Shown: in pieces, positions 740 to 53,780 of the stretch
Numbering within the stretch: the first letter of the stretch is position 1
How the letters are laid out: each line of letters opens with the position of its first letter
Assembly: GCF_963921235.1 (NCBI RefSeq)
Contig: NC_086108.1
Span: forward strand, 55,802,001-55,866,000
Length of the DNA stretch: 64,000 bases
Reading direction: 5' to 3'
Source of the DNA: Mobula hypostoma
Lineage: Eukaryota
Position numbers and translations under genes: made by a program
Notes under the pieces: model-generated
What the model was told of the DNA's origin: nothing
What the model saw: only the letters and a program-made list of their open reading frames with translations
Databases searched by the model: none

Positions 740-855
740 TTCCAGAACAACACGCACAAAATGCTGGATGAGCTCAGGAGGCATCTATGGAGAGGAATAA
801 GCAGCCAACATTTCAGTCTGAGACTCTTCCTCAGGACCCTTCCTTTTCCAGTCTG
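740..855 (-). repeat. Penelope terminal-repeat fragment
   Basis: Matches the AAATGCTGGAGGAACTCAGCAGG..GGCAGCATCT family seen at 9925 and 19720. Confidence 0.6.
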
Positions 856-9881: not shown

Positions 9882-10130
9882 ATGAGAAAGTCTGAAGATG
9901 CTGGAAATCCAAAGTGCCACACACAAAATGCTGGAGGAATTCAGCAGGCCAGGCAGCATCTACGGAAAAGAGTAAACAGTCAACATTACCCTCCCCCCGC
10001 CATTTTTTATTCTGGCATCTTCCCCCTTCCTTCTCAGTCCTGAAGAAGGGTCTCAGCCTGAAATGTCAACTATATCTCGTTTCAATAGATGCTGCCTGAC
10101 CTGTTGAGTTCCTGTAGCATTTTCTCTGTA
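9882..10130. repeat. Inverted pair of Penelope terminal-repeat fragments
   Basis: About 9925-9985 is the reverse complement of about 10062-10125. Confidence 0.7.
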
Positions 10131-10382: not shown

Positions 10383-13300
10383 CTCGCAGGATGAGGTTTT
10401 CCCTTCTAGATCATCAGAGATGTCCCCCTTCTTCGAAGCACAGAATTTCCCTTCCTCCACCACTGATGCTGCCCTCACCCACATCTCCATTTCCTGGATA
10501 TCCACACTCACCACATCTTCCTGCCGCCTTAACAGGGACAGAGTTCCTCTTGCCCTGCCCTCACCTACTAAGCCCATGAGCCTCTGCATCCAATATATCA
10601 TTCTCTACAACTTCTGCCATTTTCAATGGAACCTTACACATCTTTACCTCTCCCCCCCACCCCGCTGCGATTGCTCCCTCCATGATTCTGTCATCCATTC
10701 GTAACTCCCCCCTAACCCCCTTCACTGCCCCTGCCCCGGTCTTATCTCTGAACATGACAGAGATCTCCTCCTCCTCCATCAGCCCCATTCAGGGCCCCAA
10801 ACAGTCCTTCCAGGTGAGGCAACATTTCATCTGTAAATCCCTTTCCAACACTTCGGTTCATGGCCTCCTATTCCGCCATTATTGTCACTAATCATAAAAC
10901 AAAATAACTAAAATAACTGGGCCCAGAACACACACACCTTTATGAAACAAACATTATTTATTTTATTTGTGCACCAGGAGAACAGAATGGGCCCCTGTCA
11001 CCCACACTGTTCTGAATCCTGAACAGATATTTGATTATTTTTAATGCAGAATTGGCTTATCGGTTATGGATATTGACCATTTGGTAACTTATGCACATTT
11101 GAATTCCTTACTTGCAAGATCAACAACCATTCACAATAGAGGCGATAAGAGTCAGTCAAAACTTCAAGCAGACAACCAATTATTTGGATATTTGAATAGG
11201 TTCCTAACATATTCTGGTATCTGTCCCCCACTTTTCCTTCACTACATCGATGACTGCATTGGTGCTGCTTCCTGCACACATGCTGAGCTTGTTGACTTCA
11301 TTAACTTTGCCTCCAACTTTCACCCTGCCCTCAAGTTTACCTGGTCCATTTCCGACACCTCCCTCCCCTTTCTAGATCTTCCTGTCTCTATCTCTGGAGA
11401 CAGCTTATCTACTGATGTCTACTATAAGCCTACTGACTCTCACAGCTATCTGGACTATTCCTCTTCTCACCCTGTCTCTTGCAAAAATGCCACCCCCTCT
11501 CGCAATTCCTCCGTCTCCTCCGCATCTGCTCTCAGGATGAGGCTTTTCATTCCAGGACAAAGGAGATGTCCTCCTTTTTTAAAGAAAGGGGCTTCCCTTC
11601 CTCCACCATCAACCCTGCTCTCAAATGCATCTCCCCCATTTCACGCACATCTGTTCTCACTCCATCCTCCCTCCAGCCCACTAGGAATAGGGTTCCCCTG
11701 GTTCTCACCTACCACCTCACCAGCCTCCGGGTCCAAACATATAATTCTCCGTAACTTCCGCCACCTCCAACAGGATCCCACCACTAAGCACATCTTTCCC
11801 TCCCCCACCCCTGCTTTCTGCAGGGATTGCTCCCTACGCGACTTCTTTGTCCATTCGTCCCCCCCCATCCCTCCCCACCAATCTCCCTCCTGGCACTTAT
11901 CCTTGTAAGCAGAACAAGTGCTACACATGCCCTTACACTTCCTCCCTCACCAGCTTTCAGGGCCCCAGACAGTCCTTCCAGGTGAGGCGACACTTCACCT
12001 GTGAGTCGGCTGGGGGTGATATACTATGTCTGGTGCTCCCGATGTGGCCTTCTACATATTGGCGAGACCCGACGCAGACTGGGAGATCGTTTCACTGAAC
12101 ACCTATGCTCCGTCCGCCAGAGAAAGCAGGATCTCCCAGTGGCCACACATTTTAATTCCACGTCCCATTTCCATTCTGATATGTCTATCCACGGCCACAG
12201 TCATCGATGTAGCAAAGGAAAAGTGGGGAACAAATACCAGAATAGGTTACTGGCCTCTTACCTCTTCTCTTTACCTGCCTGCCATCTCCCCCTGTGCTCC
12301 TCCTTCCTCTCATGATCTACTTTCCCCTCCTTTCAGATTCCTTCTTCTCCAGCCCTTTGCCTTTTCCACCTATCAGCTTCCAGCTTCTTATTTCATCCCC
12401 TCCACCACCTATCACCTACTACCTTGTCGTATGCCCCCCCCCCCACTTTCTTATTCTGGCATCTTCCCCCTTCCTTTCTAGTCTGGCTGAAGGGTCTCGG
12501 CCCAAAAAGTTGGCATCATTTCCATAGATGCCGCCTGACCTGAGTTCCTGAAACATTTTGTGTGCGAGCCCTGGTATAACCAATTCCCCTCCACCGCCAC
12601 TCTCCTCCATCTGGTGGAACTGATTCTCACTCTCAATAATTTCACCTTTGCCTCTGCCCACTTCCTTCAAACAAAATGTGTAGCCATGGGCACTCACATG
12701 GATCCTAGCTATCCCTGCCTTTTTGTTGGCTATGTGGAATAGTCTATGTTTGAAGCCTACACTGTTATTACTCCACACTTTTCCTATGCCACATCAACAA
12801 TTGCATTGGTGCTGCTTCCTGCACCCATGCCGAGCTCGTCGACTTCATAAGCTTGGCCTCCAACTTCCACCCTGCCCTCAAATTTATCTGGTCCATTTCT
12901 GACACCTCCTTCCCCCTTTTCGATCTCTGTCTCTATCACTGGAGACAGCTTATCTACTGATAAACCCATTGATTCTCATAGCTACCTGGACTATACTTCT
13001 TCCAACTCTGTGTCTTGTGAAAATGCCATCTCCATTGCCAATACACCTGCTCTCAGGATGCAGCTTTTCATTCCAGAACTAAGGTGATGTCCTCCTTCAA
13101 AGAAAGGGACTTCCCTCTCTCTATCATCAACACTGCCCTCACCTTCATCCCTTCCATTTTGCACACATCTGTCCGCACTCCATCCTCCCTCCACCCCACC
13201 AGGGACTGGATCACTCATCTTCATCTACCACCCGATCAGCTTCCATATCCAGCACATAATTCTCTGTAACTTCCTCCAATGGGAACCCACCACCCAGCAC

Positions 13301-14192
13301 ACCCTTCCCTGCACCCCCCCCCCCACTTTCTACAGGAGTCGCTCCCACATGACTTCATTGTCCATTTGTCTCTCTCCCTTGTTCTCCCTCCTGGCACTTA
13401 TCCTTGCAAGCAGAACAAGTGCTCACCTGCCCCCACACCTCCTCCCTCACTACCATTCAGGGCCCCAAACAGTCCTTCCAGGTGAGGGAACACTTCACCT
13501 GTGAGTCTGTTGGGGTCACCTACTCTATGTGGTACTTCAGGTAGAGAGACCTGACGTAGATTGGGAGACCGCTTCACCAAGCACCTATGCCCTTTCCACC
13601 TGAAAAAAATAGGATCTCCCACTGACCACCCATTTTAATCCACTTCTCATTCCCATTTCAATATGTCAGTCCATGGCTCCTCTACTGCTGCGATGAGGCC
13701 ACACTCAGGTTGAAGAAGCAGCAACTTATCGTCCTTCTAGGTAGCCTCCAACCTGATGGCATGACCATAGATTTCCCCATCTTCTGGTAATGCCTCCCCC
13801 TTCACCATTCCCATTCTCCCCTCTCACTGTATCTCCTTACCTGCTCATCACCTCCTTCTGTTGCTCCTCCCCCTTCCCTTTCTTCCATGGCCTTCTGTCC
13901 TCTCCAATCAGATCCCCCCTTCTCCAGCCCTTTATAGCTTTCACCAATCAACTTCTCAGCTCTTTACTTCACTCCTCTGCCTCGTCCAATTTCACCTATC
14001 ACCTACTGCCTTGTACTTCTTCCTCGCTTCTCCCATCTTCTTATTTAAACTTCTCATCTTTTTCCTGCAGCCCTGATGAAGTGTCTCAGTGCCAAAATGT
14101 TGACTGTTTACTATTTTCCATAGATGCTGCCTGGCCTGCTGAGTTCCTCCAACATTTTGTGTCTGTTGCTTGGATTTCCAGCATCTGCAGAT
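10383..14192 (+). mobile_element. Three decayed Penelope-like retroelement copies (about 10383-10880, 11205-12565, 12566-14192)
   Basis: RT motifs AMGTHMDPSY, FLHYIDDCIG, LPFLDL, TDVYYKPTDSHSYLDY; GIY-YIG endonuclease GVIYYVWCSRCGLLHIGETRRRL; pyrimidine-rich terminal repeats; frameshifts and stops. Confidence 0.85.
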
Positions 14193-14849
14193 TTTCTCTT
14201 GTTTGCCAAAATTCTATCCAACTTCCCACCTCATCTGTCTCCTGCTGTACCCTTTTTACTCATAATACCACCAACTTTCATGTCATCTGCAAATGTACTC
14301 ACTCTGTCTTCTGCTTTTATATCGAAGTAATGAATATCAGAAACAAGGGAACCAATACTAACCTCTGCAGTTTGCCACTGTTCACATACTTCCACTCACA
14401 AAGTTATTCTTCCACCATCTCCTTGGCCTCCTGTTACCAAGTTAATTTATTTTATCCAAAAGGGAACAAACACAGAAATTGTTGGAAATGTTGGCAGATT
14501 AATCCGCTTCTATGAAGGAAAAAATAAATATTTTTAGTTTAAAATTCATTCTACTGTAAGATTTCCAAATAATTGCCTAAAGCTTTGCTAAACACATATC
14601 AATAAAATCATCAGCAAGATTTAATGACCTTCTAATCCACATAATCAGTTCCAGAAAGAACTTAAGCTTTATTAACTGACCTCTAAATGATCCAGTGTCA
14701 GCTGGAGTTACGGTTGAACATTTGGATGGTCTTAAATATTCCCAGCAGGAACAGCAAGACGGTGTAATGCTTACAGGAGAATAGATAGCCCGTAGTGAAT
14801 AATTGGCTATGAGGTGCAGAGCATCATTATTATCAGTAATTGACTAATT

Positions 14850-19709: not shown

Positions 19710-20060
19710 AGAAGCAACACACACAAACGCTGGAGGAACTCAGCAGGTCAGGCAGCATCTATGGAAATGAATAAACAGTCGACATTTCAGGCTGAGGCCT
19801 TTCTTCAGGACTGGAAAGAACTGGGGTGGGGGAGGGGAAGATGCCAGAATAAAAAGGTGGGGAGAAGGGAAGGAGGATAGCTAGAAGGTGATAGGTGAAG
19901 CCAGGTGGGTAGGGAAGATAAAAGGGCTGGAGAGGAAGGAAACTGTTAGGGGAGGAGGCTGGACCACAGGAGAAAGGATTGAAGAGAGGACCCAGGGGGA
20001 GATGATAGGCAGGTGAGAAGAGGTAAGACGCCAGAGTGGCGAATTGAAGAAGAGGGGAGA
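19710..20060 (-). repeat. Penelope terminal-repeat fragment
   Basis: Reverse complement of the 13790-14190 type sequence; contains the hammerhead motif. Confidence 0.75.
19776..19813 (-). ncRNA. Minimal hammerhead motif, near-intact, antisense to PDE4B
   Basis: Minus strand: CAGUC-CUGAAGA-A-AGGC(CUCA)GCCU-GAAAU-GUC-GACUG. Confidence 0.6.
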
Positions 20061-51908: not shown

Positions 51909-52087
51909 ACAAGCAGAATGATGTGGAGATGCCGTCCCCCACACAGAAAGACAGAGACAAGAAGAAAAAGAAACAGCTCATGACACAGATTAGCGGAGTG
52001 AAAAAGCTGATGCACAGTTCTAGCCTCACATATTCAAGCATCCCCCGATTTGCTGTCAAAACTGACATGGAAGATTGCCTTTCCAAG
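51909..52087 (+). CDS. PDE4B: PDE4B exon (LR2 linker to start of catalytic domain), 179 nt
   Basis: TTACAG|AC...CAAG|GTACAA; (D)[59 protein letters not shown]. Confidence 0.95.
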
Positions 52088-52577
52088 GTACAATTCAAGC
52101 CTCCATGTGAACTTTTATAGCAATGGAATACTAGAAAAGGAGTTCACAGTTTTGCAGCCCAGCTTGTTCTATTTTTCAGTGGGATTTTGGCTGATCTTTG
52201 ACATTACCACAAGTAAAGTCCCTCAGTGGATGACATTCCGGCAAGTTCAGGTTTTCCAGTAAATACAAGCTAGATCATAATGATCAAAGATCATTACATC
52301 CTTCCAATGTGTAATGCTCTGACTGCTCACAGTGTACAGAATCAGAATCAGGTTTATTATCACCGGCATGTGTCATGAAATCTGTTAATTTAGCAGCAGC
52401 AGCACAATGCAATACATGATAATGCAGAAAGGAAAAAAAGTAAATCAATTGCAGTAGGTATTCCCACCATCCAGACCACATCATCATTTTGCAGCTACTA
52501 TCGGGCAGGAGTACTGAATCTCCTTGCCACCAGGCTCAAGAAAAGTTACTTCCCTGCAACCAGTTCGTTGTTGAACC

Positions 52578-52655
52578 AACTGGTAAAGCCCTGGTCACTA
52601 TAACTGGTAAAGTAAAGCCCTGGTCACTACAACTGGTAAAGCCCTGGTCACTACA
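52578..52655. repeat. Short tandem triplication
   Basis: Three copies of AACTGGTAAAGCCCTGGTCACTA. Confidence 0.85.
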
Positions 52656-52890
52656 GCTTAGCAACACTATGTCCACAGTGCTAAAATAGACATTTTTTTC
52701 TTGTTCTAATTGTGTTTCTTGTAAAAAAAAAGTGGATTATTTATAGACGTTTTATTCACAAATGCTGCTGATGTAAGATTATGTGTCTGTGATGATGCTG
52801 CAAGGTTTTCATTGCATGTTTGCATGCACATGACAATGAACTTGACTTCATTTTGTAGCAGTACAGTGCAAAGACACAAAATCCATAAAA

Positions 52891-53082
52891 TTTTGGATCT
52901 CCCCCTCCCCCTCCCACTTTCAAATCTCTTACTAGCTCTTCCTTCAGTTAGTCCTGACGAAAGGTCTCGGCCTGAAACGTCGACTGTACCTCTTCCTAGA
53001 GATGCTGCCTGGCCTGCTGCGTTCACCAGCAACTTTGATGTGTGTTGCTTGAATTTCCAGCATCTGCAGAATTCCTGTTGTT
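52891..53082 (+). mobile_element. Young-looking Penelope terminal-repeat insertion nested in a LINE tail
   Basis: Retains CpGs that are decayed in the other copies; contains the intact hammerhead motif. Confidence 0.75.
52949..52986 (+). ncRNA. Minimal type-I hammerhead ribozyme motif in a Penelope terminal repeat, core intact
   Basis: UAGUC-CUGACGA-A-AGGU(CUCG)GCCU-GAAAC-GUC-GACUG: stem I, CUGANGA box, stem II, GAAA box, GUC triplet, palindromic ACGU stem III. Confidence 0.75.
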
Positions 53083-53479
53083 AATAAAATAATAATCATA
53101 AATAACTAAATCAATTACACATTACATATATTGAATAGATTAAAAATTGTACAAAAAAACAGAAATACTATATATTAAAAAAGTGAGGTAGTGTCCAAGG
53201 GTTCAATGTCCATTTAGGGATCGGATGGCAAAGGGGAAGAAGCTGTTCCTGAATCGCTGAGTGAGTGCCTTCAGGCTTCTGTACCTCCTACCTGATGGTA
53301 ACAGTGAGAGAAGGGCATCAAGACTAGCATGTCCTTTATAGAAATGAAACTGTTGTATTAGCACATTTTAGATAAAAACTGTGAAATGATATGTGTGGAT
53401 GCAATATTTCCATACGGTTTTCATAAATATCTGAGGAATTTATTGTAATTGCTGTATTCCAATGTCCTTATCTTTGCAG

Positions 53480-53578
53480 GAACTGGATGACCTGAATAAA
53501 TGGGGACTTAACATATTCAAAGTGGCAGAGTTTTCAAACAATCGACCTCTCACCTGCATTATGTACAGCATCTTTCAG
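53480..53578 (+). CDS. PDE4B: PDE4B catalytic exon, 99 nt
   Basis: TTGCAG|GAA...[42 protein letters not shown]. Confidence 0.96.
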
Positions 53579-53780
53579 GTCAGTAAGGTCAAGTGAGCAG
53601 TGGAATTCTGGATGTTTCTAGTTCAGTTGTTACTACTATTGAATATATTTCAATGCACTAGTTAACAAAGTAAAAGTAATTATTTTCTGCACAAAAAAGT
53701 TAAATGAAATGCAGCCCAAAATGATTCTATGTTCATTTTAAATTGATGTGTAATTTACATTTTTAATCCATTTTCAATAG

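What the first reader, a model, noticed from the sequence alone, without database searches (positions are those of the whole stretch)
52949..52986. Intact minimal hammerhead ribozyme motif, sense-strand, in a PDE4B intron
Seen: UAGUC/GACUG stem I, CUGACGA, one extra A, a 4-bp stem II with CUCG loop, GAAAC and a GUC triplet (predicted cut after 52981). Stem III is reduced to the palindrome ACGU. Established: Penelope-like elements carry minimal type-I hammerheads whose palindromic stem III favours cleavage as dimers. Inference: every PDE4B isoform transcribes this motif in the 1.4-kb intron 52088-53479, so the pre-mRNA may self-cleave, or be cut in trans with the help of other Penelope-derived RNAs. 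A lone copy may well be nearly inactive.
Basis: partly seen in the sequence, partly recalled or inferred. Interest (0 to 1): 0.72.

Follow-up and report, generated by a model that had tools for sequence, protein, structure and literature searches.

The report
Penelope transposon scrap carrying minimal hammerhead
The hammerhead-shaped motif is really there, but it is the tail end of a very abundant Penelope-type jumping gene, one of tens of thousands of identical copies in this genome, and it is likely an inert passenger in the PDE4B intron rather than a switch on that gene.

Summary
The motif is real (52949-52986, + strand) and sits in the PDE4B intron 52088-53479. It is not a PDE4B feature. 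It lies in a 193-nt 5'-truncated end (52890-53082) of a Penelope-like retroelement whose long copies encode RT, a Cys linker and GIY-YIG. The family's 35-mer occurs 33,195 times exactly. This copy's G10.1-to-A change occurs 265 times, as a point mutation would. Inside PDE4B the copies show no strand bias: 36 sense against 36 antisense, intact 7 against 5. Folding predicts the core is sequestered and the active dimer disfavoured. Published minimal monomers do not cleave unaided. Among 100 unbiased copies, 21 start at the motif's 5' edge and 1 at the cut site, so inserted templates were mostly uncut; the element's RNA likely starts near 52946. No cleavage or RNA data could be obtained for this intron. 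The scan has noted both this family and the pile-up before, in this and other genomes. Verdict: ordinary member of a known kind; a host role is unlikely.

The parts
52890..53082 (+). 5'-truncated 3' end (pseudo-LTR plus tail) of a Penelope-like retroelement, inserted in AT-rich DNA; no clear target-site duplication
   Evidence: 96-98% identity to dispersed copies starts at 52890. Unbiased copies with the tail end at the place matching 53082 (30 of 100), so AAT 53083-53085 is likely target DNA. Flanks printed.
52949..52986 (+). Minimal type-I hammerhead motif: stem I, CUGACGA, bulged A, 4-bp stem II, GAAA, ACGU palindrome, predicted cut after 52981
   Evidence: Sequence; family form exact in 33,195 places
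52962..52962 (+). Copy-specific G-to-A change at hammerhead position 10.1 (A-U here; G.U or G-C in the family)
   Evidence: 25 of 25 closest copies have G; 265 exact copies of this variant against 33,195
52944..52948 (+). Initiator-like TCAGT; its A (52946) marks the upstream edge of the pile-up of copy 5' ends and is the inferred start of the element's RNA
   Evidence: 21 of 100 copies start at places matching 52946-52954; the initiator consensus is recalled; start site not measured
53048..53082 (+). Optional tail of about 35 nt, typical of Penelope-like elements
   Evidence: 3' ends are bimodal, near 53082 and 53038-53056; a 30-40 bp tail is described in PMC8557442 and PMC11167929
51909..52087 (+). 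PDE4B exon upstream of the intron
   Evidence: Best PDB match PDE4B, E 1.5e-23; 98% to a ray PDE4B protein
52088..53479 (+). Host intron, GT..AG, 1,392 nt; also holds two other high-copy repeats
   Evidence: Sequence; exon mapping; repeat depth
53480..53578 (+). PDE4B exon at the start of the catalytic domain
   Evidence: Best PDB matches PDE4B, E 7.8e-14

Best explanation
This is the cut-short end of a Penelope-like retrotransposon that landed in a PDE4B intron, and its minimal hammerhead is likely a silent passenger that is spliced out with the intron. Shown: the motif belongs to the pseudo-LTR of a roughly 3.5-kb element encoding RT, a Cys linker and GIY-YIG; the copy is young, truncated and one of tens of thousands. 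Inferred: the element's enzyme nicked AT-rich DNA, began reverse transcription in the tail and stopped after 193 nt. Inferred: the hammerhead serves the element, at the very 5' end of its RNA, and cuts only slowly, as a dimer or with help from the element's protein. Predicted: in the pre-mRNA this copy misfolds and has no nearby partner, so little is cut before splicing.
For: Dispersed copies share the 3' end and differ in 5' extent. Upstream ORFs carry RT and GIY-YIG motifs; Pfam GIY-YIG E 2.3e-4 and RVT_1 E 1e-3, both under the curated cut-off. Relatives bear RVT_1 and often GIY-YIG. 29 of 30 copies holding the element's 5' region have a direct upstream pLTR joined at one junction; tandem period 3,515 nt. 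Exact counts: 33,195, 41,774 with two free positions. 109 related copies in 664 kb around the window, 20 intact, control 0. In the gene 36 sense and 36 antisense; intact 7 and 5, p 0.77. The nearest intact sense copy upstream is 63 kb away, before the short-isoform first exon. Predicted fold: -12.2 kcal/mol with the core paired to the cut site against -7.6 for the open form; stem I probability 0.01 in the 196-nt context; active dimer -13.9 against -32.7. Literature: a minimal monomer had no detectable cleavage and dimers were weak (PMC4209133); an anole PLE hammerhead cut only with protein, and its mutants still inserted (PMC11167929); hammerhead-cut introns still spliced (second-hand in PMC2995048).
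Against: No cleavage assay and no RNA data for this intron. The strand test covers one gene with 12 intact copies, so it cannot detect mild selection. Nearest-neighbour energies omit tertiary contacts and proteins. The core is complete and the A-U at 10.1-11.1 still pairs. The insertion also stands in a second organism (X5 record 18), so it has lasted at least one split. The clade label rests on a motif, not a tree.
Confidence: 0.88

Rival explanations
1. The copy cleaves PDE4B pre-mRNA at a rate that matters, as a trans dimer with other element-derived RNAs or when the element's protein folds it.
For: All core nucleotides and both stems are present. Partners could be plentiful: 41,774 exact family copies. 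The ACGU palindrome allows dimers (PMC4209133). Protein assistance is shown for an anole PLE hammerhead (PMC11167929). A review cites a paper whose title says these motifs cleave as dimers (paper not held).
Against: No sense depletion in the gene. Active dimer strongly disfavoured in the model. Only 1 of 100, 0 of 27 and 0 of 29 copies start within -2..+3 of the cut. The conserved G10.1 is lost. Slow hammerhead cuts in introns did not block splicing.
Confidence: 0.06
2. A domesticated intronic ribozyme, like the conserved amniote hammerheads in RECK.
For: Intronic, sense and core-complete; present in a second organism. Domestication from retroelements is proposed in PMC6155905.
Against: The fragment differs from the majority of its 25 closest copies at only 2 of 166 places, one of them inside the hammerhead, so it is young and shows no sign of special constraint. 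It lacks the canonical stem III.
Confidence: 0.02
3. A monomer of a separate non-autonomous retrozyme that spreads through circular RNA.
For: Short hammerhead-bearing copies are common: 39 of 100 start within the motif or just after it. Retrozymes derive from PLE pLTRs and occur in a chondrichthyan (bioRxiv 10.64898/2026.07.22.740005).
Against: This copy is collinear with the PLE 3' end and extends 56 nt upstream of the pile-up. 5' ends form a continuum out to more than 1,200 nt. There is no tandem unit here.
Confidence: 0.03
4. A chance match to the hammerhead consensus.
For: No Rfam hit; folding z-score -0.36.
Against: Strict descriptor expectation 0.01 per window. The bulged base after A9 and the palindrome are the features described for PLE hammerheads, and the motif lies in a PLE pLTR.
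Confidence: 0.01

Closest known systems
Minimal type-I hammerheads (min-HHR) in pLTRs of metazoan Penelope-like elements (Cervera and De la Pena 2014, PMC4209133; parts 1-2 of 4 read)
   Same: Short stem I, CUGANGA, one unpaired base before stem II, no stem III beyond a palindrome, location in a pLTR, mostly single truncated copies across the genome.
   Different: Stem II is 4 bp and closes with G.U or G-C in the family and A-U in this copy. The exact-match count (33,195) exceeds the roughly 4,000 and 9,000 motifs reported for coelacanth and Xenopus, though counted differently.
Neptune-type endonuclease-positive PLEs (Craig et al. 2021, PMC8557442; passages read)
   Same: [quoted passage not shown]
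   Different: The linker is shared by Neptune and Nematis and no tree was built, so the clade is not settled.
Poseidon element of Anolis carolinensis (Frangieh et al. 2024, PMC11167929; passages read)
   Same: Two 3' ends about 35 nt apart, AT-rich targets, insertion from uncut RNA, no ends at the cut site.
   Different: A different clade. No protein or in vitro data here. A pile-up of genomic 5' ends at the hammerhead's front edge was not in the passages read.
Conserved intronic hammerheads of amniotes, such as RECK (PMC6155905; passages read)
   Same: Type-I hammerhead in an intron of a protein-coding gene.
   Different: Those are conserved across amniote lineages; this one is minimal, young and one of tens of thousands.
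Non-LTR retrozymes (bioRxiv 10.64898/2026.07.22.740005; parts 1-2 of 5 read)
   Same: Type-I hammerhead, PLE-derived, non-coding.
   Different: Defined there by tandem units that each hold a hammerhead; this is a single truncated pLTR.

Membership tests
PLE minimal hammerhead | Core C3 U4 G5 A6 N7 G8 A9, G12 A13 A14 A15.1, U16.1, H17 | tested here: met
PLE minimal hammerhead | Stems I and II can pair; one unpaired base between A9 and 10.1 | tested here: met
   5-bp stem I, 4-bp stem II, A52961; pair probabilities 0.87 or more in the 45-nt piece, but stem I 0.01 in the 196-nt context
PLE minimal hammerhead | Palindromic 15.2-16.2, no real stem III | tested here: met
   ACGU 52977-52980
PLE minimal hammerhead | Highly conserved G10.1-C11.1 pair | tested here: not met
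   A-U in this copy; in the family G at 10.1 in 84 of 89, with U in 55 and C in 33 of 89 at 11.1
PLE minimal hammerhead | Lies in the pLTR of a PLE | tested here: met
PLE minimal hammerhead | Site-specific self-cleavage (dimer or protein-assisted) | not testable with these tools
   needs an in vitro assay
PLE minimal hammerhead | Compensatory changes in stems among families | not tested
   No formal covariation count was run; by eye stem I is invariant and only one-sided changes occur in stem II
Rfam hammerhead models | Score at the gathering threshold | tested here: not met
   0 hits in the window; no hammerhead among 6 hits at E<=10 in 52000-53600
EN+ Penelope-like element | ORF with RT and C-terminal GIY-YIG | tested here: met
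   Motifs; weak Pfam hits below cut-off; none on two shorter pieces; relatives with RVT_1 and GIY-YIG
EN+ Penelope-like element | Partial tandems (pLTR), inverted 5' copies, optional tail | tested here: met
   29 of 30 with a direct pLTR; 46 of 100 with an adjacent inverted copy; bimodal 3' ends
Neptune clade | CX2-5CxxC linker between RT and endonuclease | tested here: met
   C-x4-C-x2-C motif in the ORFs; shared with Nematis
Neptune clade | RT phylogeny | not tested
   No named reference PLE sequences were on hand
Non-LTR retrozyme | Tandem units, each with a hammerhead | tested here: not met
   Single copy in the intron
Domesticated intronic hammerhead | Conserved at the orthologous site across distant species | tested here: inconclusive
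   Present in organism B; the other 3 of 4 runs show no listed piece across the junction

The most novel reading that the evidence does not exclude
The hammerhead sits in the first 40 nt of the element's RNA and is switched on by the element's own protein. When the element is active, for example in the germ line, that protein would also fold thousands of intact sense copies in host introns, this one included, into cutting ribozymes, coupling transposon activity to host pre-mRNA turnover.
Probability: 0.06. Interest if true: 0.65.

Novelty: new member of a known kind. Interest (0 to 1): 0.2.

Why it matters
As a PDE4B regulator it would matter only if cleavage were shown, and the evidence points the other way. 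The family is more useful than the copy. What PLE hammerheads do in vivo is an open question (PMC4209133, PMC8557442), and a genome with more than 40,000 near-identical copies allows direct tests. Copy ends pile up at the motif's front edge, not at its cut site, and an older subfamily spread with a core change. Both fit the in vitro result that uncut RNA is the insertion template.

Tried and rejected
Rfam at gathering and at E<=10: no hammerhead. Pfam on two ORF pieces: no family. Sequencing runs: no RNA holder listed on record. Four runs guessed to be RNA left the two flanking PDE4B exons uncovered, so splicing and expression were not seen; as contigs they cannot show ends or strand. Empty-site test in other organisms: three of four DNA runs gave no listed piece across the junction. 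Idea that 5' ends pile up at the cut site as a footprint of cleavage: rejected (1 of 100, 0 of 27, 0 of 29). Idea that the pile-up at -36..-28 comes from shared flanks or a nested family: rejected for the 10 solo copies, whose flanks share no collinear junction. Idea that the window's A at 10.1 marks a subfamily: 265 against 33,195 fits point mutation. The A6C count with a strict pattern was unclear (159 against 256 for G plus T) and became clear only when CpG decay was allowed. The paper by Lunse et al. (PMC5785218) is not held; only its title was seen. One search listed 2 papers naming G10.1 and C11.1, which were not read; that an A-U pair there lowers the rate is recalled. Search of earlier findings by sequence: nothing.

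Full report
Observation. The motif is present as described at 52949-52986 on the + strand. A minimal type-I descriptor finds it and two more window sites (19808 and 834, both - strand) against 0.1 loose and 0.01 strict hits per shuffled window in 100 shuffles. Rfam does not recognise it and its folding energy is ordinary (z -0.36). The intron is GT..AG 52088-53479. Both flanking exons match PDE4B better than PDE4D, A or C among solved structures. The nearest named protein is a ray PDE4B at 98%. All 6 PDE4B proteins mapped, long and short, use both exons, and their coding exons span G000:C50:55426311-55862975 on the + strand.

What it is. The motif lies in a repeat. The 30 best genomic matches fetched are 96-100% identical over 52920-53085. 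They share the 3' end and extend 5' by different lengths. The window copy starts at 52890. Longer copies run into an ORF with RT motifs, a C-x4-C-x2-C linker and a GIY-YIG domain. Pfam gives weak hits below its cut-offs, and 2,294 relatives were found, most of those listed bearing RVT_1 and some GIY-YIG. Of 30 copies picked by the element's 5' region, 29 have a direct upstream copy of this 3' end joined at one junction, and two adjacent units lie 3,515 nt apart. Of 100 unbiased copies, 46 have an adjacent inverted copy, and 3' ends fall in two groups about 35 nt apart. These are the pseudo-LTR, inversion and tail described for endonuclease-positive Penelope-like elements (PMC8557442, passages; PMC11167929, passages). 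The linker points to Neptune or Nematis; no tree was built.

How common. The family's 35-mer is exact in 33,195 places, with 0 for the reversed control, and 41,774 with N7 and 11.1 free. In 664 kb around the window there are 109 related copies, 20 of them intact by my descriptor, and 0 in the reversed control. The window copy differs from the majority of 25 close copies at 2 of 166 places (L017 and L018 were left out for length, L029 and L030 were not included). One difference is G10.1 to A, found in 265 places, 0.8% of the family form, which fits a recurrent point mutation. A contig of organism B crosses the 5' junction (X5 record 18), so the insertion predates that split. The other three runs were uninformative.

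Does it act on PDE4B? Not tested directly; four indirect lines say probably not. First, within the gene there are 36 sense and 36 antisense copies, intact 7 and 5, a small sample with no depletion. Second, the nearest intact sense copy upstream is 63 kb away, before the short-isoform first exon. Third, the predicted monomer pairs core GACG with CGUC at the cut site (-12.2 against -7.6 kcal/mol for the open form), stem I has probability 0.01 in the 196-nt context, and the active dimer scores -13.9 against -32.7 for the best co-fold (tertiary contacts are not modelled). Fourth, in print a minimal monomer showed no cleavage and dimers little (PMC4209133, parts 1-2 of 4), the anole PLE hammerhead cut only with protein (PMC11167929), and introns cut by a slow hammerhead still spliced (reported second-hand in PMC2995048, passages). 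A review states that rates are very low even for dimers (PMC6765202, passages). Against my reading: the core is complete, partners could be abundant, and protein assistance is real in one PLE. The four runs guessed to be RNA did not cover the flanking exons, which says nothing either way.

What the family says about the ribozyme. I took the first 100 exact matches on contig C1 to a 31-mer downstream of the predicted cut and mapped their 5' ends. With 0 as the first base after the cut, 21 of 82 copies at risk start at -36..-28, against 1.2-1.7 expected from the background rate (p below 1e-16). The two arms of an inverted pair are not independent, but 10 of 54 solo copies show the same, with unrelated junction flanks. 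Only 1 of 100 starts within -2..+3. A second sample near the window gave 7 of 27 and 0 of 27 (two of the 27 are cut by a region edge). Long copies behave differently: 23 of 29 upstream pLTRs reach -85 or beyond, 2 start at -30 and -32, 4 start downstream of the cut, and none at it. Their templates were therefore read-through multimers or circles. The upstream edge, -36, is the A of TCAGT at 52946, which resembles an initiator (recalled), and Drosophila Penelope has an internal promoter (PMC2377424, passages). I infer that the element's RNA starts there, that short copies are run-offs to its 5' end, and that inserted templates were mostly uncut, as found in vitro. An RT barrier at that place is the alternative. 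Cut RNAs might also be degraded and leave no trace. An older subfamily has C at core position 6: 1,911 matches against 761 for G and T together, and 10 of 30 sampled copies by eye. A6C was slow in a phage hammerhead (PMC3088659, passages). This fits cleavage being dispensable for spread, though such copies may have been moved in trans.

Comparison and novelty. It works like, and meets the sequence tests for, the minimal PLE hammerheads of Cervera and De la Pena, except for the G10.1-C11.1 pair; activity is untested. It is not a retrozyme array (bioRxiv 10.64898/2026.07.22.740005, parts 1-2 of 5; its supplements, which list the chondrichthyan families, are closed and may bear on prior description) and shows no sign of domestication (PMC6155905, passages). 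Searches listed no paper whose title or abstract start concerns this ray family or a pile-up of 5' ends at the hammerhead edge; the library lacks most subscription papers, and Repbase was not available. The scan's own notes record the same family many times and the same pile-up in this genome. I read those, and they are not independent evidence.

Verdict. Interest 0.2.

Noticed in passing
L143-L232 (G000:C1, first 5.6 Mb); window equivalent 52946-52954: 5' ends of family copies pile up at the front edge of the hammerhead (21 of 100), not at the cut (1 of 100); the edge coincides with an initiator-like TCAGT.
   Followed up: yes
L263-L292; genome-wide counts: An older subfamily carries C at core position 6 (1,911 matches against 761 for G plus T), mostly with a 2-nt shorter spacer after stem I; it spread with a core change known to slow cleavage.
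   Followed up: partly
window 52890-53082: The fragment keeps the inferred start site and downstream pLTR sequence in sense orientation ahead of the PDE4B catalytic-domain exons, so it could in principle act as an internal promoter; no evidence was obtained.
   Followed up: no
window 802-837 (-), 9885-9961 (-), 9989-10111 (+), 12436-12542 (+), 14069-14203 (+), 19712-19850 (-): Six older copies of the same pLTR family in the window; only the one at 19812 passes the intact test, and 9961/9989 form a head-to-head pair.
   Followed up: partly
window 52333-52456, 52842-52882 and 53108-53318: Other high-copy repeats in the same intron (very high contig depth); not identified.
   Followed up: no
window 52579-52655: Short local tandem of about 23-28 nt (CTGGTAAAGCCCTGGTCACTA), three copies, in the intron.
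   Followed up: no
L034, L035 (G000:C130:560000-579999): A roughly 4.9-kb duplicated unit holding an inverted pair of this element and a second, divergent RT/GIY-YIG element.
   Followed up: no
L066 875-1500 (oriented): In tandem copies the long ORF is open from within the tail, so the tail may encode or precede the protein's N terminus; a GT donor-like site at the window equivalent 53040 might mark a 5' intron as in Drosophila Penelope.
   Followed up: no
L146 and L179: Two copies start at +8 behind the same unrelated upstream sequence, suggesting a chimeric repeat or a duplication.
   Followed up: no
P0145, P0188: Public ray gene models named for host proteins include long pieces of this element's ORF, probably annotation chimeras.
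   Followed up: no
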